The notes beneath the pieces were generated by a model. That model saw only the letters and a list, made by a program, of their open reading frames with translations. It did not search any database and had not been told where the DNA came from. Made by a program: the position numbers and the translations under genes. A stretch of 64,000 nucleotides of DNA from Eledone cirrhosa (taxonomy: Eukaryota): positions 104,098,001-104,162,000 of the forward strand of contig OZ024745.1 of the NCBI GenBank assembly GCA_964016885.1, read 5' to 3'. Below are positions 8,843 through 62,500 of this stretch, piece after piece. How positions within the stretch are numbered: the first letter of the stretch is position 1; every line of letters begins with the position of its first letter.

Positions 8843-8888
<46 letters not shown>

Positions 8889-8895
<7 letters not shown>

Positions 8896-9320
8896 ATCAA
8901 AAGATGGTTAAAGGAGTTCCAAGTATTTTATTATGCGCATTTCAAAAACAGATATCATCATGAGATGATATCTGCGTTTTCATCAGATAAAATAGGGATA
9001 CATGATATGAAGGTTAAAAAACACTTGTGAATAGTGAAGTTTTAAATCAACATATGTTGATCAACATATGTTGATTTAAAACTTCACTATTCACAAGTGT
9101 TTTTTAACCTTCATATCATGTATCCCTATTTTATCTGATGAAAACGCAGATATCATCTCATGATGATATTTGTTTTTGAAATGCGCATAATAAAATACTT
9201 GGAACTCTTTTAACCATCTTTTGATCTTATATTATTTATACTCCAGTCCTACAAGCTGTAGAGTGCTACTTATCCGATATTTGCATTGCTTTATTGTGCT
9301 ACAATAAAACTCACCTCCTA
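8889..9320 (+). mobile_element. Palindromic (172-bp arms, axis 9060/9061) HHR-bearing PLE-type insertion with unique tail, in (TA)n
   Basis: 8889-9060 is the reverse complement of 9061-9232 (about 2 mismatches seen); tail 9233-9320. Confidence 0.85.
9127..9197 (+). ncRNA. Type I hammerhead ribozyme (mirror copy 8924-8994, - strand)
   Basis: tattttat-CTGATGA-long stem II-GAAA-TGCGCA-TA^-ataaaata: 8-bp stem I and palindromic stem III, typical of PLE minimal/dimeric HHRs. Confidence 0.85.
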
Positions 9321-10447: not shown

Positions 10448-10488
<41 letters not shown>

Positions 10489-10490
10489 TA

Positions 10491-10797
10491 ATAATACAAG
10501 GATGATTTGTTAAGCCTTCATTACGTTTATTGACTGGTGATGCGCATTTCGCTATTGATCAGCTCATCAGACGAGCTTTTGATTCCAGAGTCAGGCCAGA
10601 TCTATACAGATCAAACCTTGAGCTGATCAATAGCGAAATGCATGTCACCAATCAATAAACATAATGAAGGCTTAACAAATCGTCCTTGTATTATCATATT
10701 ACACTCTGGTTAGCTCTACACCTCACCACTGACGTGAACCTAAACATCGGGTGCTCACCTGGGTGAACCTACAGTAACTTCACGTTACATTCTGGAT
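10491..10797 (+). mobile_element. Fold-back HHR-bearing PLE-type fragment (arms 10491-10566 / 10619-10694 plus tail), in (TA)n
   Basis: Inverted arms visible. Minus strand 10534-10575 reads CTGATGA-gct gatcaat agc-GAAA-TGCGCA-TC. Same family as 28850-29018. Confidence 0.75.
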
Positions 10798-11823: not shown

Positions 11824-11880
11824 GTTTCTGACCCTCCCAAAGTATAACAATATATATATATGTATATGTATATATATATG

Positions 11881-11974
<94 letters not shown>

Positions 11975-12051
11975 TATATACATATATATATACATATATA
12001 TACATATATATACATATATATATATACATATATATACATATATATATATAC

Positions 12052-12090
<39 letters not shown>

Positions 12091-12112
12091 CATATATATA
12101 CATATATATATG
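11785..12112. repeat. (TA)n microsatellite, left flank of the PLE
   Basis: Direct observation. Confidence 0.95.
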
Positions 12113-12623
12113 TATATTTGGGGAGGGTCATATTTGCGTAATATTGCCAGAATTAATAACAGAACACACTCACTGTTTGGTTGGTTTTCGCTTCTCGCTG
12201 TCTTTTATATATATATATCTGCGATCTAACTTACTCGGTCCTCAATGTTGCCATTGACTGACCGGCGGTCAAAAATAATACAGATACAATATAGACAAAC
12301 ACATATATATATAGTTTACATAAATCTTTCGTTGCACATCTGCAACATCGTCAGTGGTGTTATATTCATTGTTCCTCCTGTTGTGTTGTATGTCTACGCC
12401 ATTTTTTTTTTTTGTTCAGTCTGTCTATATATTTATTTATTTATTTGCTTGTTTGTTTATCTTATTTTATTTTGTCTTCTTTGCGCATGCGTTTGCGTGT
12501 GTGTATAGTGTGATGTGTGACTAGTGTGTATCGTGTTGTGTCTGCTGGGTGACTAGTGTGTGTTTATGTGCTTGTGTATGTATTTATTTATCTTATTTTA
12601 TTTAATTTAATTTACTTATTTAT

Positions 12624-15123
12624 TTATACTTCTCTTAGGTCAGTGTTGTTTGTTTGGGTGTTGTTGTTGTTCCACTCATTCTTTCTGTTTAGCTTTGGTT
12701 TTCTAATTTCTATTTCACTGGCCTCTCTGATTTGCCTATCTGCTGGGTCATTCCTATGTTTAGATATTATTCTAATTTCTATGTTGTCTATGTTACCGTC
12801 ATGATGTTGTCTAGCATGTTCGTATAGTACTGACCCGTTTTTTCGTCCTTTTAGTTCCCCCCAGTGTTGGTCTATCCTTTCACCTATGCTACGAGCTGTC
12901 TCACCTATGTATGTTGTTGTCGTGTTTCTGCAAGTACCCTCTGTACATCTTATGCTATAGACTACGTTTCTAGTTTTACAGTTTATCCGGGGGTTCACCT
13001 TACATATGATACATTTCCTATTGGTACAGTGGGTTTTCTTAAAAGGGTAGGTTTTGCTGATCAGGGATTTTATGGTGGTTCCTGGCTTTTCTACCACCTT
13101 TATTTTTAAGTGGGTCTTTCTCAGGGCCTTTCTACACTGGTTAGCTAATTTCCCTCCAGGGGTGGCGTCCACAAACATGACACTCTGATATCTCTGGTTG
13201 TCGTACCATGATGTGGCCTTCCCTATCTTATGTCTAGCCCTATCTAAGCTATTCCATGATTTGCTCCTGTATAGTGGGCAAATTCCTTTCATGTCCAGTT
13301 CTATGAGGGTCTTATACTTTTCCATGGCTCCTTCGTATACTCTGACTCTGTCTCTTTGGTTGTAGCCAGAGAACTGCATGCGGTTGATGAAGTGTTGGAT
13401 GTGTCCTTCCATTTCTGTTGGGTCGCACATGCTGGACACATTCTTCATCACTCGTACCAAATCTGCGATCAGAATATTAAACTTAGCACTACTGGACATT
13501 GCTGAGTTTTTGAGTATCAGGTATTTGGAGGCCATGGGTTTAGCATAGTGTGAGTGGAGAATTTGGGCTCTCTCGTCTATAGTGTTAATCCAGAGTTCTG
13601 TGTCTAATACAGGTAGTCTATTGTTAGGGTGTTTGGAAGGGAAGTCTATAGTTACAGTTATACTCTGGTGTATGGAATTAGCTATCTGCTGGATGCTTTC
13701 CATCGTGCTACGTTCTAAATCAAACTTGTTAGTGCTCTCTAGTGGGGGTGTTCTTATAACTATATTGATATCATCTACATAACGAGAGTACATGATGAGG
13801 TCTATGGAGCTTTCATTAAGGAGATCTTTAAGTCTCCTTTCCCACCATACCATGAAAAGGTTGGCAACATCGCCAGCTATGCTGACGCCGATGGCTGCTC
13901 CCTCATTTTGGGTGTAGATTTTCTCATTGAACTTAAATATGTGGCCCTTTAGGGTAGTTTTGATACTAGCCCCTATTGCATGTGCGACCATTTTTCTTAC
14001 CTGATCAGTGTTTTGGGGGGTCCGTATAGCTTTGGTCCACCCAATCCACCTTCCTATGGGAGTCTTTTTAGCCATTGAGGTTATGGTGGGGGGTCTACCT
14101 CTTATAGGTCTACTAGGGCAGAAACATCTAAGGTCATGGCTGTCTAGGTAGTCAGTGTCGTAGGTAAGTCTAAGTAGGAGGCCTAGTTCGTCTGTGTCGA
14201 CGTCGCAGAACTCCACCTCACTCTCAATGATCATCTCCACACATCTTTTCACAGCAAAATCAATGTTAATGGATGGGTACAGTGACACCACATCCATGCT
14301 GCCTATTATGCAGTTGGATAGGCTCCTGTTTTTGTTGCACTCACTGATTCTGCTGAGGAGGTCCTCTGTACTTTCACATACATCTGGGGACATCTTGATT
14401 ATGGGGCGTATAACCATCGAGAGGAAGTAGGAGATCCTGTAGTTGCTAGCTATATTAGCTCCGCATACAGGTCTTGTTGGTGGTCCTATTGTCGGGTCGT
14501 CGACTGTCTTGTGGTCTTTGCGGAGCCCATACAAGGGTGGTATGCCATTGTTAGACGCCTGGAAGTTGTTGGCAGTGCGTCTGCTTGGCTTTAGGATGTC
14601 AGTCCACATCATCATGTGAGCGTTGAGGATTTTTTCTCTCCCATCGTGTGTTAGTTGTGCAACTTCGCTCGTGTTGGTGATGTGGGGTTGCATTGCCTCG
14701 ATGTAGTTCGGCATGCTATCTATTGACATCCTACCAGACTTATCTGTGGGTAGACACACTACCTCACCATCCCTTGTGCGCTGCTTGAGGCTAACCAAGC
14801 CTTCTACAGGTTTTATCCCAAGTTGTTGGGCCTCTGGTCTGCTCTGTCTCATAGTGTACCTGTCTACTACTTGTCTAATCTTATTTCTAGCTATGGTGAA
14901 CTGTGCCTCCGTCTCGTCATCTATTTGTTGTGGTATGCAAACTCTTTTATTAAAGGGTAACCTCGTAGGATAGATATTACCCATCTTATATGTTTTGTCA
15001 GCTGGGTTGAAAAATAGTTTCTCTAAGGGGTTGTCGTTATTTCTATCGTCATAGTTGTGTGTGTTGCTATTATTGTTATCATGGTGGTTGTTGTTGTTTC
15101 TATCCTTAGCATTAATATTATTA
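12624..15123 (-). pseudogene. N-terminally truncated inverted copy of the same PLE ORF (RT + GIY-YIG uninterrupted)
   Basis: ORF 12624..15290 equals the + ORF from NNINAKDRN onward; its first ~55 aa come from antisense spacer sequence. Confidence 0.9.
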
Positions 15124-15131
15124 CAGTTAAT

Positions 15132-18100
15132 ATGAAAAGAACAACATACACAAAAGTCAACGCACTCTACAGACAAAAACGCATCAACGGTAAGGAAATC
15201 CGAAATCTCATCACAGCAAACGAGAGAGATGACTTCATGAGCGTCATCCGACGCGAAACGAAATATGCTCAAAACGAATGCTGTAGGCATTTCAAGAAGA
15301 AATTAGAATGGATGAATAAGAAAAAACTACAAGAAAGGAAAATCGAATATTCTCAAAAATACCCAGATAACATCGACAACATCCGTATGAGTGATGTAAA
15401 ACTACCGGAGGAATTTACCAATGACCACACAGTAAATATCTATGGGAACACTGTAATCAGTGAACAAGAACAACAAATCCTAAAGTTACCACCAAAATTT
15501 GCCATCTACAAAAAGATTAATCCTATGGAATGCAAAACGGAGCTGGAAAAGTGTTTCACAAAAATACGTTGGAATGCAAAGGTAAACAACAACAACAATA
15601 ATAACGGTAGTAGTAATATAAACAATAACTCTGGGTATAGAAATAACAGCCATAACCATAACAATGGCAGGAAAGTGAGAAATAGTGATAATGGTAATAA
15701 TACTAGCGATAGACAGAACAACAACAACCACAATAATAATAATAATAGAAACGTTAACCACAGACACAGCAACAGTGACCACAGTAGTAATAACGGTAAC
15801 AATACGAACAACAACAACAACAATAACCACAGTGGTAATAATGGAAATAGTACATGTAGCAACATCAACAAAAACAAGAAACATAATAATAGTAACAACC
15901 ACAATGGTAGAAATAGCAGTAACAACAACAACAATAACGGTGAAGTAAACAACAATACATCTAGCAATCATAACAATAATAATATTAATGCTAAGGATAG
16001 AAACAACAACAACCACCATGATAACAATAATAGCAACACACACAACTATGACGATAGAAATAACGACAACCCCTTAGAGAAACTATTTTTCAACCCAGCT
16101 GACAAAACATATAAGATGGGTAATATCTATCCTACGAGGTTACCCTTTAATAAAAGAGTTTGCATACCACAACAAATAGATGACGAGACGGAGGCACAGT
16201 TCACCATAGCTAGAAATAAGATTAGACAAGTAGTAGACAGGTACACTATGAGACAGAGCAGACCAGAGGCCCAACAACTTGGGATAAAACCTGTAGAAGG
16301 CTTGGTTAGCCTCAAGCAGCGCACAAGGGATGGTGAGGTAGTGTGTCTACCCACAGATAAGTCTGGTAGGATGTCAATAGATAGCATGCCGAACTACATC
16401 GAGGCAATGCAACCCCACATCACCAACACGAGCGAAGTTGCACAACTAACACACGATGGGAGAGAAAAAATCCTCAACGCTCACATGATGATGTGGACTG
16501 ACATCCTAAAGCCAAGCAGACGCACTGCCAACAACTTCCAGGCGTCTAACAATGGCATACCACCCTTGTATGGGCTCCGCAAAGACCACAAGACAGTCGA
16601 CGACCCGACAATAGGACCACCAACAAGACCTGTATGCGGAGCTAATATAGCTAGCAACTACAGGATCTCCTACTTCCTCTCGATGGTTATACGCCCCATA
16701 ATCAAGATGTCCCCAGATGTATGTGAAAGTACAGAGGACCTCCTCAGCAGAATCAGTGAGTGCAACAAAAACAGGAGCCTATCCAACTGCATAATAGGCA
16801 GCATGGATGTGGTGTCACTGTACCCATCCATTAACATTGATTTTGCTGTGAAAAGATGTGTGGAGATGATCATTGAGAGTGAGGTGGAGTTCTGCGACGT
16901 CGACACAGACGAACTAGGCCTCCTACTTAGACTTACCTACGACACTGACTACCTAGACAGCCATGACCTTAGATGTTTCTGCCCTAGTAGACCTATAAGA
17001 GGTAGACCCCCCACCATAACCTCAATGGCTAAAAAGACTCCCATAGGAAGGTGGATTGGGTGGACCAAAGCTATACGGACCCCCCAAAACACTGATCAGG
17101 TAAGAAAAATGGTCGCACATGCAATAGGGGCTAGTATCAAAACTACCCTAAAGGGCCACATATTTAAGTTCAATGAGAAAATCTACACCCAAAATGAGGG
17201 AGCAGCCATCGGCGTCAGCATAGCTGGCGATGTTGCCAACCTTTTCATGGTATGGTGGGAAAGGAGACTTAAAGATCTCCTTAATGAAAGCTCCATAGAC
17301 CTCATCATGTACTCTCGTTATGTAGATGATATCAATATAGTTATAAGAACACCCCCACTAGAGAGCACTAACAAGTTTGATTTAGAACGTAGCACGATGG
17401 AAAGCATCCAGCAGATAGCTAATTCCATACACCAGAGTATAACTGTAACTATAGACTTCCCTTCCAAACACCCTAACAATAGACTACCTGTATTAGACAC
17501 AGAACTCTGGAATAACACTATAGACGAGAGAGCCCAAATTCTCCACTCACACTATGCTAAACCCATGGCCTCCAAATACCTGATACTCAAAAACTCAGCA
17601 ATGTCCAGTAGTGCTAAGTTTAATATTCTGATCGCAGATTTGGTACGAGTGATGAAGAATGTGTCCAGCATGTGCGACCCAACAGAAATGGAAGGACACA
17701 TCCAACACTTCATCAACCGCATGCAGTTCTCTGGCTACAACCAAAGAGACAGAGTCAGAGTATACGAAGGAGCCATGGAAAAGTATAAGACCCTCATAGA
17801 ACTGGACATGAAAGGAATTTGCCCACTATACAGGAGCAAATCATGGAATAGCTTAGATAGGGCTAGACATAAGATAGGGAAGGCCACATCATGGTACGAC
17901 AACCAGAGATATCAGAGTGTCATGTTTGTGGACGCCACCCCTGGAGGGAAATTAGCTAACCAGTGTAGAAAGGCCCTGAGAAAGACCCACTTAAAAATAA
18001 AGGTGGTAGAAAAGCCAGGAACCACCATAAAATCCCTGATCAGCAAAACCTACCCTTTTAAGAAAACCCACTGTACCAATAGGAAATGTATCATATGTAA

Positions 18101-18476
18101 GGTGAACCCCCGGATAAACTGTAAAACTAGAAACGTAGTCTATAGCATAAGATGTACAGAGGGTACTTGCAGAAACACGACAACAACATACATAGGTGAG
18201 ACAGCTCGTAGCATAGGTGAAAGGATAGACCAACACTGGGGGGAACTAAAAGGACGAAAAAACGGGTCAGTACTATACGAACATGCTAGACAACATCATG
18301 ACGGTAACATAGACAACATAGAAATTAGAATAATATCTAAACATAGGAATGACCCAGCAGATAGGCAAATCAGAGAGGCCAGTGAAATAGAAATTAGAAA
18401 ACCAAAGCTAAACAGAAAGAATGAGTGGAACAACAACAACACCCAAACAAACAACACTGACCTAAGAGAAGTATAA
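15132..18476 (+). CDS. PLE polyprotein: Asn-rich N-terminal region, reverse transcriptase, Zn-knuckle linker, GIY-YIG endonuclease (uninterrupted, 1114 aa from ATG; true start may be lost)
   Basis: PTDKSG, YGLRKDHK, PTRPV, SMDVVSLYPSI, QNEGAAIG, YSRYVDD, PVLD, CxxxxCxxC, NVVYSIRC...YIGETAR...R...EH...E. Confidence 0.92.
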   Translation: MKRTTYTKVNALYRQKRINGKEIRNLITANERDDFMSVIRRETKYAQNECCRHFKKKLEWMNKKKLQERKIEYSQKYPDNIDNIRMSDVKLPEEFTNDHTVNIYGNTVISEQEQQILKLPPKFAIYKKINPMECKTELEKCFTKIRWNAKVNNNNNNNGSSNINNNSGYRNNSHNHNNGRKVRNSDNGNNTSDRQNNNNHNNNNNRNVNHRHSNSDHSSNNGNNTNNNNNNNHSGNNGNSTCSNINKNKKHNNSNNHNGRNSSNNNNNNGEVNNNTSSNHNNNNINAKDRNNNNHHDNNNSNTHNYDDRNNDNPLEKLFFNPADKTYKMGNIYPTRLPFNKRVCIPQQIDDETEAQFTIARNKIRQVVDRYTMRQSRPEAQQLGIKPVEGLVSLKQRTRDGEVVCLPTDKSGRMSIDSMPNYIEAMQPHITNTSEVAQLTHDGREKILNAHMMMWTDILKPSRRTANNFQASNNGIPPLYGLRKDHKTVDDPTIGPPTRPVCGANIASNYRISYFLSMVIRPIIKMSPDVCESTEDLLSRISECNKNRSLSNCIIGSMDVVSLYPSINIDFAVKRCVEMIIESEVEFCDVDTDELGLLLRLTYDTDYLDSHDLRCFCPSRPIRGRPPTITSMAKKTPIGRWIGWTKAIRTPQNTDQVRKMVAHAIGASIKTTLKGHIFKFNEKIYTQNEGAAIGVSIAGDVANLFMVWWERRLKDLLNESSIDLIMYSRYVDDINIVIRTPPLESTNKFDLERSTMESIQQIANSIHQSITVTIDFPSKHPNNRLPVLDTELWNNTIDERAQILHSHYAKPMASKYLILKNSAMSSSAKFNILIADLVRVMKNVSSMCDPTEMEGHIQHFINRMQFSGYNQRDRVRVYEGAMEKYKTLIELDMKGICPLYRSKSWNSLDRARHKIGKATSWYDNQRYQSVMFVDATPGGKLANQCRKALRKTHLKIKVVEKPGTTIKSLISKTYPFKKTHCTNRKCIICKVNPRINCKTRNVVYSIRCTEGTCRNTTTTYIGETARSIGERIDQHWGELKGRKNGSVLYEHARQHHDGNIDNIEIRIISKHRNDPADRQIREASEIEIRKPKLNRKNEWNNNNTQTNNTDLREV

Positions 18477-18734
18477 ATAAATAAGTAAATTAAATTAAAT
18501 AAAATAAGATAAATAAATACATACACAAGCACATAAACACACACTAGTCACCCAGCAGACACAACACGATACACACTAGTCACACATCACACTATACACA
18601 CACGCAAACGCATGCGCAAAGAAGACAAAATAAAATAAGATAAACAAACAAGCAAATAAATAAATAAATATATAGACAGACTGAACAAAAAAAAAAAATG
18701 GCGTAGACATACAACACAACAGGAGGAACAATGA

Positions 18735-18792
18735 ATATAACACCACTGACGATGTTGCAGATGTGCAACGAAAGATTTATGTAAACTATATA
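18735..18792 (+). ncRNA. Candidate minimal type I hammerhead in the PLE 3' UTR (mirror 12308-12365, - strand)
   Basis: CTGACGA-T-gttgca gatg tgcaac-GAAA-GATT-TA; stem III self-complementary with G.U pairs; stem I is short and interrupted. Confidence 0.55.
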
Positions 18793-19050
18793 TATATGTG
18801 TTTGTCTATATTGTATCTGTATTATTTTTGACCGCCGGTCAGTCAATGGCAACATTGAGGACCGAGTAAGTTAGATCGCAGATATATATATATAAAAGAC
18901 AGCGAGAAGCGAAAACCAACCAAACAGTGAGTGTGTTCTGTTATTAATTCTGGCAATATTACGCAAATATGACCCTCCCCAAATATAACAATATCTGTTT
19001 CGACACACGATTTCATATAAAAAACCTCGCAAAACTAATTCATCGCCGCT

Positions 19051-19788
<738 letters not shown>

Positions 19789-20102
19789 AGAATGCTGTTG
19801 AAGTGTGTATACATTTTTTGGGACACCTTTATTACACATCCATTTCTCTCTCTCCCTCTCTCACTGTCATTCTCCTCTTACACCCTCTCTCCACCTTCAC
19901 CCCCTCTCTTTCTTTCTCTCTCTCTCAACCACTCCCTATTTACCCTCACTACCAATCTATCTAACCCTTTACATCTTGTCCTTTATCTCACATCTTTGTG
20001 TCATCAACTTTGGTAAGCCTCTCTACTAATGAGCAACAACTGCTGCTATTGTTAGCACTACAAAATCTCAGTGTATTTCTCATTGTATCTGTTGCTGTGA
20101 CT

Positions 20103-21052: not shown

Positions 21053-21189
21053 GTTTATATAGTGTTTATGTTCATTTAGTTAGTGTAAGTGCTGTGGCTG
21101 TATTGTTTGGGGTGGAGGTGGTGGAGAATTATAGCTGTTAGAGTAATTTATGCATTAAAGCAAATGTATTTTACTTTTCAACTTCACAG

Positions 21190-21302
21190 GAGGCATATGT
21201 GGAAAGCTTCAAAGATGATATGCTCTTTAACAACTTGTATATAGATGATGTTGAAGGCAAGAAGGTCAACGAAATGCCTGGTATTGCCGATGAAATGACT
21301 TA
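21190..21302 (+). CDS. DRC3: DRC3/LRRC48 internal coding exon (EAYVESFKDDMLFNNLYIDDVEGKKVNEMPGIADEMT+ta)
   Basis: Polypyrimidine tract and cacag acceptor at 21189. Translation is colinear with vertebrate DRC3 as I recall it (TAFVEHLNGSFLFDSMYAEDSEGNNLSYLPGVGELLE). The frame hits TAA at 21301 unless spliced at ta|ATATCC. Confidence 0.85.
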
Positions 21303-23008
21303 ATATCCAGAACTTTATCATATGTCTCTTGATTCATTTTCACCTATATCTTTTTAACTAATTGATCTACAGGTAAATCATATGGTGTGAAAATAAATAG
21401 AGTGTTACTATTCTTTAGTATAAATGCTAAGGTGGTAAGACATTAGAACATCAGATTGAAGGCTTTGCAGTATCTATTCTGGCTGTTCGTACTCTGAGTT
21501 CAAATCACACCAAAGTCAACTTTGCCTTTCATCCTTTCCAGGTTGATAAAAAAAAGTACCATTTAAGTACTGGGGTTGATTCTTCCTCTCTTTCTTTATC
21601 TTTTCTCTCTTTCAATTTCTCTCTCCTTATCTGGAAGAAATTGGCTGTGAATTTGGTGAGTGATGGGCTCCACCAGGTTTAAATTGCCCAAGACTCACCG
21701 TATGCCACGACAGTGCCCCTACAACCCCTACAATATAAATGCTATTGTAATGAGTATCATGTAGTAGTGGTAAGTACTTGGGAAGCCTAGTCCATAAGCC
21801 CTTTTAAATTTCCAGTTCCAGGGATTGTGTTCAGCTCTAATAAATAGAAGTAAGCATCTGGCAACTCCAAGTTTGATTTCCATTTTGTGCCATTTAACAT
21901 TCTACTGTATTGAAACTACAGAATCTCATTAACTAGACTGTACTTGTGATTTAATGGCCTAGTCCTATCACATAGTGTCACATAATATCACACAGTGTCA
22001 CACAATGTCACACTGAAGATTACATTAAGAGTTCATGTGTCTGTGGAGCACTCAGCCATTCAATGAGTAGATTAACCTTTTGATGAACCCAGAACTGTTA
22101 TATGTCAAAATGGATGCAAAAGTCTGTCATTTTAAAAGATTAAATATTGGTTGAATGTTTAGTTTTGCTTCTCTTCATTCTGAGTTCAAATCTTGTTATA
22201 CTTGACCTTGACTTCTGATTTTGATAAAATAAATACCAGCAATCTACTGGTATTCAATCAAGTATACACTATTTCCTATACAAACTGGCCTTATCTTAGC
22301 CAAAATAAATACATAAATTCATAGTCCTAGCCAACCCCTGCTAGTGAAATAAATAATAGTTTCTGATTTAGGCATAAGGCCAGCAATTTTAAGGGAAAGG
22401 GAAAGTCAATTAAATTGACCTCGGTATGTGACTGGTACTTTATTTTATTGACCCCAGTTACTCACTGATATTTTATTCTATCGACCCCGTAAGAATGAAA
22501 GGCAAAGCTAACCTCAGTGGGCTTTGAACTCAGGGCGTAAAAGGTCATAACTCTATGCCGCAAAGAAAGGTGTCCGGTGTTATGATTAGTTGGGGACAAA
22601 CTCCCTTTTGAAATGAAAAACATGTTTGATAGAATGGATCTCATTTTGTCTACATCAATTTAGAGTTTATATTAACTCTAAATTAATTTACTTGTGTCTG
22701 TATCCTCTCTATTCACTACCCTTTAGCATTTAAACTGGCCCTATCCGGCCAGAATTCTCTCACCTCTTTCTGTTCTAACCAGCCATAACCAGCCACTCGT
22801 ACTGATGTTAAGGTATTCTTATCAAAATAAATACTGAGCACTTTTATTTAAATCCTTCCAAGAACCGTTTCTCTCTAGAACTTACTCTATACTACGTTGG
22901 ATAGTTGCAAAGGTGTGATGCAATGTTCAATTGTTTCTACTCTTTCATTGACAATAAGATACATAAAAAACTTGTGAAACCTTTGCTGTGCTTCCTTAAC
23001 TTCTTCAT
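21303..23008 (+). other. Putative U12-type (minor spliceosome) intron with AT-AT termini
   Basis: 5' ATATCC at 21303, consensus U12 branch TTCCTTAAC at 22992-23000, 3' end ...ttcttcAT. Splicing gives ta+t = Tyr and a gap-free alignment to DRC3. Confidence 0.72.
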
Positions 23009-28659: not shown

Positions 28660-28845
28660 CGAAGGAAATGTGGTAAGGAACCAGGTGGACCATAACGCAC
28701 CAAAGTACTCAATACTTAGGGTAGTAGAGTGGGTAATAGGAACGAGTAGGACCCCGACGGCTGAGCTCAAGCCGTTTCGACGGGTAATTCTGGACTCCCG
28801 TCGAAACGGCTTGAGCTCAGCCGTCGGGGTCCTACTCGTTCCTAT
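28660..28845 (-). mobile_element. Fold-back fragment with perfect ~48-bp arms containing HHR 3' half (GAAAC ggcttgagctcagcc GTC)
   Basis: ~28737-28784 is the reverse complement of ~28797-28845; unique tail on the left; TA flanks. Confidence 0.7.
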
Positions 28846-38466: not shown

Positions 38467-38555
<89 letters not shown>

Positions 38556-38560
<5 letters not shown>

Positions 38561-39468
38561 GAAGAGAGAAGAAACATTTAGATATAATTAGTAATAAAAT
38601 GTATCATACCTAAACTGCTCCTAGATTCCTCGAGGAATCTAGGAGCAGTTTAGGTATGATACATTTTATTACTAATTATATCTAAATGTTTCTTCTCTCT
38701 TCATAATGTACTTTTAGCTCTGATACTGGTTCAGTCTAATTCAACCGGATTGGTCTGTCCCAGTCATTCATAGAGCAACATCAGTAAGGTTGGCAGCATT
38801 AACTCACGGTTGGATGTGAATGCATTCATGTATATGTGTGTGTCCGCATGTATCTGTGTGTTTCTAAATATATTGTTCATAACTCCCTCTGGTCGAGTAA
38901 TCTTTGAAGTGTGGTGACTGCTGGAAAGCTGCCATTACTCATACTTCTCGCCTCCTTCACCACCTCTTCTATGGCTTCGATATAAATACCCCCTCCGCCT
39001 CCGTGGTATTTTCTTCGGGGTTATAAGAGGCTTAGCTCTGTTTCTTGACCGTTGTATCACATGACTATCTCCCCCTCCGCCTTTTGGGATTCTTTCTCAC
39101 ATCATATAGACGCGTTCTTGAAGCTAGTAAAACGAGGTATCCTCTTGATAAGTCGGCAGACCTCGCAAAAACTCTATATCTTTATGATGTATTGTTTTTG
39201 TTTATGCCACGAAACTACGTAGTCGAGGAATCTAGGAGCAGTTTAGGTATGATACCTTTTATTACTAATTATATCTAAATGTTTCTTCTCTCTTCATAAT
39301 TTACTTTTAGCTCTGACACTGGTTCAGTCTAATTCAACCGGATTGGTCTGTCCCAGTCATTCATAGAGCAACATCGGTAAGGTTGGCACCATTAACTCAT
39401 GGTTGGATGTGGATGCATTCATGTATATGTGTGTGTCCGCATGTATCTGTGTGTTTCTAAATATATTG

Positions 39469-43107: not shown

Positions 43108-43274
43108 TAGATCCCGGGTTAAATCGGGGATAACCACAGTAAGCAGGGTACTCAATACATAGCAGAGTAAAAGTAATTTAATATAGAAATGGCTTCTACA
43201 GGACTAGAACTGTTTCATTCTGATGATTTCCTCCGAATGAAACAGTTCTAGTCCTGTAGAAGCCATTTCTATAT
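43108..43274 (-). mobile_element. Fold-back fragment (arms 43181-43220 / 43235-43274) with HHR 3' half; non-inverted copy at 45895-45963
   Basis: GAAAC agttcta GTC motif in both arms; TA flanks. Confidence 0.65.
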
Positions 43275-43279
43275 ATACA

Positions 43280-43314
<35 letters not shown>

Positions 43315-59582: not shown

Positions 59583-59586
<4 letters not shown>

Positions 59587-62500
59587 GAAAATAAACCAAA
59601 GAAGCCTTCAATACATCAAAAGTCTTTATTAGCCAACAATGTTTCGTCCTATTAAGGACTCACCAGGACAATTAAAGCTATAAGAAGCACAATCGGCCAA
59701 TACACTATGCTTTAATGTATGTACACTCCATATTCTTCTGAGTTTTTGGCTTGTATTGGCCGATAGTGCTTCTTATAGCTTTAATTGCCCTGATGAGTCC
59801 TTAATAGGACGAAACATTGTTGGCTAATAAAGACTTTTGATGTATTGAAGGCTTCTTTGGTTTATTTTCATAATTCTTCGGCTCTGTTTAATTACATTGA
59901 ACTATACCTTTACTGTCATTTCTATAATACGAAGAGGGTGTTTAACTCCAACACACTCTAGTATTTTAATTCTTGTTACGGCTCCTGATTGGTTGAGCTT
60001 CCTCCTATATACTGGTGTTTTGGCCTTTATATATATCTGACAGTATGCTAACAAAGAGTTACCTGCCTTTATCTCTGAAGAATATTCCCATCCCCTCTAG
60101 AAATACATATGAAAAACTCTTAATTGCTAGTGTTAACTCCTTCGTAAAAAGGATTAGATGGCGTGCTTTCCACTATGATATTAATAGGAATAGGACTGAC
60201 CCCAAGCATAGAACTCCTTTCAATAACTTTGGCTTCAAAACTTATAAGAGCCCACCACATAATGTTCTATTAGATAATTTTGAAAATGACTTACTTTCCC
60301 TTGTTAAAAATATTAAGTATAGGCCATATAATAGACATGGAAATTATAATAAGTTTGACAGGTTGCAGTCTAGACTTAAAAATATTGTTAAGGGTTTTAG
60401 AGCGAATAAGTCTATTCTTGTCCCGGCTGATAAGACTAAGAATCTATACTCTATGGATTACAGTGCTTACCGTAATTTTATTTATAAGGAGCTGCATAGA
60501 AATTATAAAAAGACTACGCAGGATAATTTGAACCATATCAATAGTGAGGGTCTTAAGATAGTCTCGGACCTTGGCCTTGATAAGTATACCCAGCCATATT
60601 ACCCTAGGGAACCGAGATTCACTCTTAAGGATCATAAGGTAGACTTCATTAGTAATCCCTCTGTTAGACCCATCTGTCCTTCTAAGTCTGATATAGCCAT
60701 AATTAGTAAGAAAATCATTGACCTTATTATACCAGCTGTTAGGGAGAAGGTTAATTTTAATCTATGGGGGAACACTAAGGAGGTTATAGATTGGTTCTCT
60801 GGCATTAATAAACTTGAATCTAGTAGGTTTATCCAGTTCGATATTGATGCCTATTACACATCGATTTCACCCATCCTCCTTAATAAAGCCTTAATGTTGG
60901 CATGAGAGTGTCCAGCCTTACACGATCACAGGTAGATATTATACTAGCAGCCCGTAGAACTATCATTAATTTTGAGGATACATTTTGGACCCGTAAAAAC
61001 ACGCCCAACAATTTCGACGTTACAATGGGTTCGAGTGATTCGGCCCAGGTAACTGATCTTGTTGGGCTGTTCCTCCTAAATGAACTATATGTTACCTTTC
61101 CGCACCTTAAAGGCGGACTTTATCGTGACGATGCATTGTTTGTGATTAACTCTAGCACCAACAACATCGAGCATAATAAGAAGAAGCTTTATAAGTTTTT
61201 TAAAAGCTTTAACCTTTCGATCACGGTAGATAGAAACGATAGAGCGGTCAACTTTTTAGATGTGACTTTGGACTTGGTCACTAATAGTTTTTTAAACCCT
61301 TCCATAAGCCTAATGAAATACTCTCTTATGTTAGTCCCAATTCTAACCACCCCAAATCTATGATAAGCTCTATAATTAATGGTGTATCTAATAGGATTTC
61401 CACACTCTCTAAGGACGTAGGAACATTTAATGCACATGCAGAGTACTATAATAATTCCCTAGCTAACTCCAGTTACTCTGGTAAAATACATTATAATAAT
61501 AGTAACCTTAGAAAGTCTCCGCTTACTTATAATAATAATAACATAATATCCCATAATATGGCCATGAATGGGAGTAGAAAGCATAAGAATCGTAGAAATC
61601 ACATAGGTGTATCTGAACCCATCCATAAGTTAAGCCACCGGATTCGTAATAGGGAATCTAATAGTTCTAGGAATCAAGTCGAGCCCTCTGAGCGCTCACT
61701 CAGTGGTAATGCTTTTGCTAAATCTAATAGTGTTGTTTCTACTGATCCTATTATTAGCCCTAATCCTTTTGATATGATTCCAGATAGCTGCAGATATAAT
61801 AATGGTAGAAACAGAAAGAGACTTAATGGAGTTTCGGCTGATTCTAATAATGTGGTTTTAACTAGTCCTTGTAGTAACCCAAATCTTAATAATGGGATAT
61901 TAGATAACGGTAGAGTTGGTAAGGATAAAAATAGAAGGAGACTAAATACTTATTTTAACCCGCCATATAACCAGGAAGTATTAACTAACATCCCTAGGTC
62001 TTTCTTTTCTATCTTAGAGAAAAATTTCCCTCCTACTAATAAATACCATGGTATTTTTAATAAAAATATAATTAAACTTTCATTCTCTACCACCCCTAAT
62101 ATTAGTTCTCATTTAGCTAGCACTAACAATGGGAAAATTAGGGATGGATACTCCTCTCTACGTACTACTAGTCTGAATAGATCCATAAATGCCTTACCAC
62201 CTGAGTAGACCTTATCTCATAGTAACCCTACGTGTGATGCATCACTACTTCAGCCGATCAATAGCACCCGGAAGTGTAATTGTAGAGTGAGTGTTAACTG
62301 CCCTTTAAACGGTAACTGCCTCTCTAAGAACATCGTTTATGCTTGTGTAGTTAAAACTAATTCCTCTAATAGCACATATATAGGCTCAACATCTAACACT
62401 TTTAAGACTAGGTTTAATTCTCATATCTCTAATTTTAAACATGTTAAGTTTAAGAATTCTACTTCTTTAGCACACCATATCTGGGATCTTAAGGGGGCTA

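What the first reader, a model, noticed from the sequence alone, without database searches (positions are those of the whole stretch)
12113..18987. Young, open-ORF Penelope-like element with a 3-kb near-perfect inverted copy of its own RT-endonuclease
Seen: 3011-bp arms around an 853-bp spacer, one amino-acid difference between the copies, an uninterrupted 1114-codon ORF, and long (TA)n on both sides. The inversion covers most of the ORF rather than only a short pLTR. Inference: a single recent insertion with fold-back synthesis, and a candidate autonomous partner for the small HHR elements. It probably lies in a DRC3 intron, so the pre-mRNA would carry a 3-kb dsRNA stem (ADAR or endo-siRNA substrate, possible self-silencing).
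Basis: partly seen in the sequence, partly recalled or inferred. Interest (0 to 1): 0.75.

Follow-up and report, generated by a model that had tools for sequence, protein, structure and literature searches.

The report
Two-armed Penelope insertion, enlarged reverse transcriptase
This mirror-image stretch is one truncated copy among thousands of a young jumping gene, likely made by copying its RNA into both ends of one DNA cut; the layout is already known, but its copying enzyme carries a conserved extra piece of about 70 residues where telomerase has one, which likely marks an unnamed branch of these elements.

Summary
The 3011-bp arms, 853-bp spacer, one mismatch, 1114-codon frame and DRC3 intron are all real. 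The interpretation needs changing. The family has 3,611 exact end-matches genome-wide, and 41 of 60 loci sampled in order along one contig are two-armed. The true ORF is 1210 aa and starts inside the upstream repeat. This copy lacks the promoter and the first 96 residues, so it is not autonomous, and it shares no termini with the small hammerhead elements. In 113 of 117 two-armed loci one arm ends at ORF+26 and the other about 45-58 nt later (the 'tail'). In 24 of 51 simple loci neither arm can be a copy of the other. A 13-bp target duplication and cap-like extra G's point to two reverse transcriptions from one staggered cut on capped sense RNA, not fold-back. This scan has reported such double priming in other genomes. 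New here: the RT has 127-136 residues between motifs A and B (53 of 53 relatives) against 52-63 in 39 other Penelope-type proteins. It defines a long-branched lineage nearest Nematis-type elements that I did not find in print.

The parts
12113..15123 (-). Left arm: 5'-truncated inverted copy (RT-EN, 3' UTR, pLTR), untailed end at ORF+19
15123..19052 (+). Right arm: longer 5'-truncated sense copy, starting at nt 280 of the 4133-nt unit, tailed end at ORF+84; 1-nt overlap (A15123) with the left arm
15132..18476 (+). Residues 97-1210 of the family ORF, read from an internal Met (1114 aa)
15585..16073 (+). Asn-rich insert, 163 aa, 50% Asn; much shorter in homologues
16806..17213 (+). RT motif A to motif B, 131 aa, holding a ~70-aa conserved insert at the telomerase IFD position (ELGL, CP.R..GR.PTIT, RW..W)
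17316..17330 (+). RT motif C (RYVDD)
18072..18299 (+). Short C-X4-CxxC-X7-C linker, then GIY-YIG endonuclease with CCHH (VVY..C..C..YIGET..H..H)
18667..18703 (+). pLTR start: TATA-like box, inferred cap sites at 18674 and 18678, A-run, AAAATGGCG (YY1-like; motif name recalled)
18746..18779 (+). Hammerhead core CUGACGA - 6-bp stem II - GAAA (mirror copy at 12354); stems I and III weak
   Evidence: no Rfam hammerhead hit
18969..19052 (+). True start codon and first 28 codons of the next unit; untailed priming site at 18994, tail 18995-19052
12105..12117 (+). Target-site duplication, left copy (TATATATGTATAT)
19050..19062 (+). Target-site duplication, right copy
11850..12112 (.). (TA)n-rich target, left
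19053..19789 (.). (TA)n-rich target, right
21187..21297 (+). First DRC3 exon downstream of the insertion (DRC3 residues ~236-273)

Best explanation
This is a doubly 5'-truncated, head-to-head insertion of a young, high-copy Penelope-like retrotransposon in a (TA)n tract of a DRC3 intron, likely made when both 3' ends of one staggered cut each primed reverse transcription on RNA from the same source copy. Inferred steps: a capped sense transcript starts at about 18674/18678 in the pLTR. The endonuclease cuts (TA)n with a ~13-nt stagger. One target end pairs through TAT/ATAT with the RNA at ORF+26, the other at ORF+69 to +84. The two cDNAs run towards the RNA 5' end, stop independently and are joined through short microhomology. 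Shown: this copy lacks the promoter and the first 96 residues; complete 1210-aa ORFs lie in tandem units elsewhere. The family's RT has a conserved ~70-residue insert between motifs A and B and belongs to a distinct lineage, probably related to Nematis.
For: Copy number: 3,611 exact pLTR-end 27-mers, 1,579 tailed 30-mers, 249 pLTR-to-ORF junctions. One tailed plus one untailed end in 113 of 117 two-armed loci: 56/57, 26/28 (read by eye), 31/32 new mini-loci. Among 51 simple loci the untailed arm reaches further 5' in 24, the tailed arm in 22, equal in 5; in those 24 each arm holds sequence the other lacks. A shared non-TA word at both junctions in 27 of 57 loci against 7.2 +/- 2.2 (max 13) in 200 shuffled pairings. 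Arms of one locus differ by 48 substitutions in 47,951 nt against ~173 expected between loci; family-polymorphic alleles are in both arms at 33 of 35 sites. Variants in both arms are 12 synonymous/11 non-synonymous and match the multi-locus spectrum (p=0.32); one-arm variants are 19/51. In 38 loci both arms stop just 5' of the A-run; arms ending at 18678 carry an untemplated G in 9 of 10, at 18674 in 5 of 8. Junctions: 56 of 88 with 1-11 nt overlap, 29 with inserts, 3 blunt. In vitro, an anole PLE cuts and extends both strands from two RNA sites that bound the tail (PMC11167929). RT spacing; trees.
Against: No biochemistry; everything mechanistic is read from genomic fossils. In the window itself the tailed arm is the longer one, so fold-back is not excluded for this single locus. 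Four loci break the rule (one T/T, one U/U, two with a partial tail). Nineteen of 60 sampled loci have one arm only. The anole enzyme showed no strand difference in start site and primed without target homology, whereas the model here needs one site per strand and shows TAT overlap. One RNA molecule cannot be told from two RNAs of one source. How arrays of three or more units per arm arise (read-through, strand transfer or a circle) is unexplained. Tree references are unnamed proxies labelled by linker type, without Naiad, Athena, Coprina or TERT; the placement next to Nematis has only 62-81 UFBoot and may be long-branch attraction.
Confidence: 0.75

Rival explanations
1. Fold-back or self-priming: one cDNA folds on itself and copies itself to give the inverted arm (first reader; the antisense self-priming idea of PMC3846280).
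For: Near identity of the arms (1 in 3,004 nt). At this locus the shorter arm is wholly contained in the longer. Palindromic junction words at several loci. Variants shared by both arms are rich in A>G/T>C (18 of 32 against 14 of 83, p=5.5e-5).
Against: Impossible in 24 of 51 simple loci, where the shorter arm carries a tail absent from the longer. Shared variants look like source-lineage variants: half are synonymous and the spectrum matches multi-locus alleles. Extra G's at pLTR start sites point to a capped sense template.
Confidence: 0.12
2. Two separate insertions into the same site, or later recombination or gene conversion that homogenised the arms.
For: The family targets (TA)n and carries internal TA tracts; long inverted repeats can convert; L056 and L057, local duplicates, differ in one end.
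Against: One target duplication brackets both arms. The strict tailed/untailed pairing and the absence of (TA)n at most junctions are not expected. Short 300-nt arms follow the same rule.
Confidence: 0.07
3. Assembly or read-chimera artefact.
For: No public contig or read bridged the junction in 8 runs; near-identical repeats are hard to assemble.
Against: The flanks beyond the arms are not mirror images, the arms differ at their ends and at one internal base, a target duplication is present, and each locus has its own junction. The runs are other samples or contigs and cannot test a single-copy junction.
Confidence: 0.04
4. On the RT only: the lineage is an already catalogued PLE group (for instance in Repbase) whose long A-B spacing was simply not remarked on, or the insert is an idiosyncratic expansion without function.
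For: The lineage is abundant (2,696 representatives at E<1e-30, some of which may be other PLEs). IFD-like regions occur sporadically in Coprina. Repbase and the canonical reference set of PMC8557442 were not available to me.
Against: The insert length is tight (127-136 in 53 of 53), with conserved residues and an ordered predicted fold (pLDDT 84-98). PMC8557442 states that canonical C-terminal-EN PLEs have no IFD. Six clade motifs are absent from its supplement text.
Confidence: 0.4

Closest known systems
Canonical EN+ Penelope-like insertions with an inverted 5'-truncated copy and a tail at one end (PMC8557442 Fig. 2 legend; PMC3846280; PMC2377424)
   Same: Partial tandems forming pLTRs, head-to-head inverted copy of variable size, tail at one end only, AT-rich targets, ORF start inside the pLTR, Asn-rich insert (also seen in Adineta Pen2a-4).
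   Different: The tail is 45-58 nt rather than 30-40. The one-tailed/one-untailed pairing is quantified here. This copy has no internal pLTR-ORF junction.
Poseidon of Anolis (PAc) in vitro, PMC11167929
   Same: Two RT start sites just inside the ORF that bound the tail; both strands extended; hammerhead-uncut RNA used as template.
   Different: Start sites here are at +26 and +69 to +84 and overlap the target by TAT/ATAT; each insertion uses one of each; PAc has no linker finger.
Nematis clade
   Same: C-terminal GIY-YIG with CCHH, short CX2-5CxxC linker (7 residues to the next Cys), similar pre-linker 'VVEKPG' segment; groups with short-linker and nematode proteins in my trees.
   Different: Motif A-B spacing 131 against 61-63, DK(S/T)G for DKG, GxxIG for GxxMG in motif B, stem of 1.5 substitutions per site, no Pfam match.
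Telomerase RT (IFD) and Naiad/Chlamys PLEs
   Same: Extra sequence between motifs A and B; TERTs are the top structural matches (VIA Z 10.8, rmsd 3.9, 345 aligned).
   Different: The endonuclease is C-terminal here; the insert (~70 aa) is longer than the ~20-40 aa of Naiad/Chlamys; homology to the TERT IFD was not shown, only position.
L1 twin priming (recalled)
   Same: Both target ends prime and the cDNAs join by microhomology.
   Different: In L1 the two pieces are non-overlapping parts of one RNA; here both start ~58 nt apart and copy the same sequence.

Membership tests
EN+ Penelope-like element | Single ORF with RT and GIY-YIG endonuclease | tested here: met
   Atlas neighbours of homologue P0002 are PLE families
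EN+ Penelope-like element | RT closest to telomerase | tested here: met
   the top 14 VIA rows are TERTs
EN+ Penelope-like element | pLTRs from partial tandems, inverted copy, tail at one end | tested here: met
EN+ Penelope-like element | Hammerhead ribozyme in the pLTR | tested here: inconclusive
   Core fits the 7-17 nt spacer rule of PMC8557442; stems I and III weak, fold z 0.5 and -0.7; no Rfam hit
Canonical C-terminal-EN PLE | No insertion between RT motifs A and B | tested here: not met
   131 aa against 52-63; statement in PMC8557442
Nematis | Short CX2-5CxxC linker plus CCHH | tested here: met
Nematis | RT falls inside the Nematis clade | tested here: inconclusive
   With short-linker and nematode proxies: UFBoot 81 (45 sequences) and 62 (30 sequences), FastTree 0.98; no named references
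Nematis | DKG motif and canonical A-B spacing | tested here: not met
   DK(S/T)G and 127-136 aa
Neptune | Long linker (over 20 residues after CxxC) | tested here: not met
   7 residues here; 21-26 in the long-linker set, which forms its own clade
Penelope/Poseidon | No linker finger | tested here: not met
   linker present
Hydra | DKT motif, no CCHH | tested here: not met
   a Hydra-like protein from this genome branches apart
Naiad/Chlamys | N-terminal endonuclease | tested here: not met
   endonuclease at residues ~1000-1090 of the window frame
TERT-type IFD | Structural homology of the insert to the telomerase IFD | not tested
   Only position and predicted order were shown; the insert was not folded or aligned alone
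Autonomous copy | Upstream pLTR and full ORF | tested here: not met
   Copy starts at unit nt 280; full ORFs in 27 of 40 tandem units fetched, a sample biased to intact copies

The most novel reading that the evidence does not exclude
The family belongs to an unnamed, widespread PLE lineage that joins a C-terminal, Nematis-type endonuclease to an RT with a conserved, telomerase-length insertion in the fingers. It inserts by two-sided priming on one capped RNA, and this currently active family is a ready in vitro system for asking what such an insert does outside telomerase.
Probability: 0.45. Interest if true: 0.7.

Novelty: new variant of a known kind. Interest (0 to 1): 0.5.

Why it matters
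How PLEs make tandem and inverted insertions is an open question named in PMC8557442. This family gives over a hundred very young, fully assembled insertions whose ends favour two-sided priming on capped sense RNA over the published antisense self-priming idea, and it ties the genomic tail to strand-specific use of the two start sites seen in vitro. The RT insert contradicts the rule that C-terminal-EN PLEs lack an IFD, which bears on how PLEs relate to telomerase. The lineage also escapes Pfam, so it is probably under-annotated. The locus itself is ordinary: a non-autonomous copy, one of roughly 1,500 two-armed loci (rough extrapolation).

Tried and rejected
Pfam: no family for the 1114-aa protein at E 0.1. 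Rfam: no hammerhead hit in the element. Reads: no RNA holder listed; no piece bridging 15123/15124 in 8 runs, all contigs or other samples, one with nothing laid in each call. Homodimer test of residues 1-250: no verdict, score 0.00, uncertain fold, alignment not used. A-to-I editing as the source of variants shared by both arms: rejected, because T>C (12) exceeds A>G (6) on the sense strand and the spectrum matches lineage variants. Hammerhead cleavage site as the RNA 5' end: rejected, arm ends pile up about 100 nt upstream of it. A first reading of the stop site inside the A-run was an alignment artefact, corrected. My first label, Neptune, was dropped after comparing linker lengths. Support values printed are displaced by re-rooting; use. 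The Atlas held neither the family protein nor P0022; only P0002 was searched. No Naiad ORF turned up in the fetched loci. In one search only 53 of 148 new representatives could be scored for A-B spacing; all were 120-159. L057 was left out of the variant counts as a duplicate of L056; Asn-rich and 3' UTR low-complexity zones were left out too. Literature searches that found no description of strand-paired tail use or of this RT lineage; subscription papers, Repbase and bioRxiv supplements were not searchable.

Full report
OBSERVATION. The inverted repeat is real: 12113-15123 pairs with 15977-18987 over 3011 nt with one mismatch and an 853-nt spacer. The + strand frame from ATG 15132 gives 1114 aa. 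Both sides are TA-rich. DRC3 exons flank the site: a full DRC3 protein (P0069, named from an Octopus species by its source) maps to ten ordered + strand exons, and the element lies in the ~22.6-kb intron before the exon at 21187 (PDB DRC3 matches). The host is therefore likely an octopod (inference from 81-82% identity).

THE FAMILY. The window is G000:C5:104098001-104162000. All 40 scored candidates of about 2,780 were 99-100% identical. Exact patterns count 3,611 pLTR ends, 1,579 tailed ends and 249 pLTR-to-ORF junctions, with 0 control matches. The unit is 4133 nt and its ORF is 1210 aa, starting at the ATG equivalent to 18969 inside the upstream repeat. Independent public contigs continue upstream of 15123 with this missing 5' part, and the missing residues align with homologues. 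The window copy starts at unit nt 280. It has no upstream promoter and lacks 96 residues, so it is not autonomous as it stands. Full ORFs were found in 27 of 40 tandem units fetched, in a sample biased towards intact copies. The nearest sister is L011 on C12, 0-1 substitutions away in about 3 kb.

ARCHITECTURE. I fetched 31 top-hit loci, 60 of the first 63 loci in order along C1, 36 more long copies and 36 mini-palindromes. In the C1 sample 41 of 60 are two-armed, four of them with only a 14-20 nt tailed stub. Ends fall in two classes: untailed at ORF+26, and tailed at +69 to +85; both end in TAT/ATAT against (TA)n. One tailed plus one untailed end occurs in 113 of 117 two-armed loci with both ends visible (56/57; 26/28, by eye; 31/32 new loci). 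The exceptions are one T/T, one U/U and two partial tails. One duplication brackets both arms: TATATATGTATAT in the window, CACTACACTATAT in L075, and informative words in 27 of 57 loci against 7.2 +/- 2.2 in shuffles.

MECHANISM. Fold-back needs one arm to be contained in the other. In 24 of 51 simple loci the untailed arm is longer while the shorter arm carries the tail, so both arms need an RNA template; 22 loci, including the window, are the other way round and 5 are equal. The arms share a source: 48 differences in 47,951 nt against ~173 expected, and 33 of 35 polymorphic alleles are concordant. Private variants in both arms are A>G/T>C-rich (18 of 32 against 14 of 83), which fold-back or editing could give. 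But they match the multi-locus spectrum (14 of 33, p=0.32) and half of the coding ones are synonymous, as expected of source-lineage variants. Thirty-eight loci have both arms stopping within about 20 nt upstream of the A-run. Arms ending at 18678 carry an untemplated G in 9 of 10 cases and at 18674 in 5 of 8; I read this as copying of the cap (established RT behaviour, recalled), hence a sense, hammerhead-uncut template. This fits the anole PLE, which extends both strands from two RNA sites bounding the tail and does not need hammerhead cleavage (PMC11167929, parts 1-2 of 4 read). It does not fit antisense self-priming (PMC3846280, passages and Discussion read). Against: that enzyme showed no strand preference and no target homology; 19 of 60 loci are one-armed; fold-back is not excluded at this single locus; the origin of arrays with three or more units per arm (C6, C1) is open.

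THE PROTEIN. Pfam finds nothing. The AlphaFold2 model of residues 401-1210 (57-sequence alignment, pLDDT 88.8) matches telomerase RTs best. The linker is C-X4-CxxC-X7-C, the short Nematis form, not the Neptune form, by eye against Fig. S2 of PMC8557442. The distance from motif A Asp to motif B Gly is 127-136 residues in 53 of 53 scored relatives and 52-63 in 39 of 39 other PLE-type proteins; 53 of 148 further representatives could be scored and all were 120-159. The insert is conserved and predicted to be ordered. With the insert columns removed, these proteins form a clade (UFBoot 100, stem 1.53) that sits among short-linker and nematode proteins with moderate support (81 and 62), apart from long-linker, no-linker and Hydra-like sets. 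PMC8557442 (passages, sections 12, 20, 22, supplement parts 1 and 54, term searches) says canonical PLEs lack an IFD, and six clade motifs are absent from its supplement text. That supplement holds Naiad, Chlamys and Hydra ORFs but not the full canonical set, so prior cataloguing in Repbase is not excluded.

OTHER CLAIMS. The small fold-back elements in the window share no terminal sequence with this family; the one at 59583 adjoins a Hydra-like ORF of a separate family. A 3-kb stem in DRC3 pre-mRNA follows from the geometry, but no RNA data were available. Young PLE families are already reported in an octopus genome (PMC13282606, passages). Large inverted repeats of variable size are reported in D. 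virilis Penelope (PMC2377424, two passages). The retrozyme preprint 10.64898/2026.07.22.740005 was seen as abstract and outline only.

PRIOR NOTES. This scan has already reported double-primed PLE insertions in other genomes. I had reached that reading before looking (note); the cap and shared-variant tests were prompted by those notes. No note matched this protein or the fingers insert.

VERDICT. Real, young, but an ordinary non-autonomous member of a known insertion type. Its value lies in the family-wide evidence on mechanism and in the RT lineage. New variant of a known kind; interest 0.5.

Noticed in passing
window 59583-62208: A second PLE: fold-back pLTR with a hammerhead core at 59790 and a frameshifted Hydra-like ORF (DKT, RWR, VTMGS); 150 matches in the genome, many with open frames near 900 aa.
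   Followed up: partly
window 8880-9240, 10486-10699, 28736-28845, 38553-38710, 43176-43281: Short palindromic elements in TA tracts, unrelated to the focal pLTR; 10486-10699 has a hammerhead core at 10570 (-). They may be two-armed stubs of other families or MITEs.
   Followed up: no
window 11829-11853: 25-nt stub of a sibling subfamily's untailed end, 260 nt left of the insertion in the same TA tract.
   Followed up: no
G000:C6:30043000-30071000 (L043-L045); C1:14381000-14396000 (L047-L048): Head-to-head arrays with three full units on one or both arms. In the C1 array all units share three private variants and all three full units break at the same codon. Suggests template jumping or a circular template.
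   Followed up: partly
L056 and L057 (C1:36.13-36.15 Mb): Local duplicate insertions with the same junction but different right ends (tailed against untailed).
   Followed up: no
L219-L248: Another young PLE family in this genome (open frames near 887 aa, short linker, normal A-B spacing), also with head-to-head pairs; it is among the nearest branches to the insert lineage.
   Followed up: partly
TA flanks of many loci: Flanks often repeat a locus-specific variant unit on both sides for hundreds of bases; this could be slippage during or after insertion. No background comparison was made.
   Followed up: no
window 21297-21303: The DRC3 exon frame reads ...ADEMT-stop with no GT directly after the aligned codons, and the next exon's acceptor at about 23016 has a weak tract; splice sites were not resolved.
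   Followed up: no
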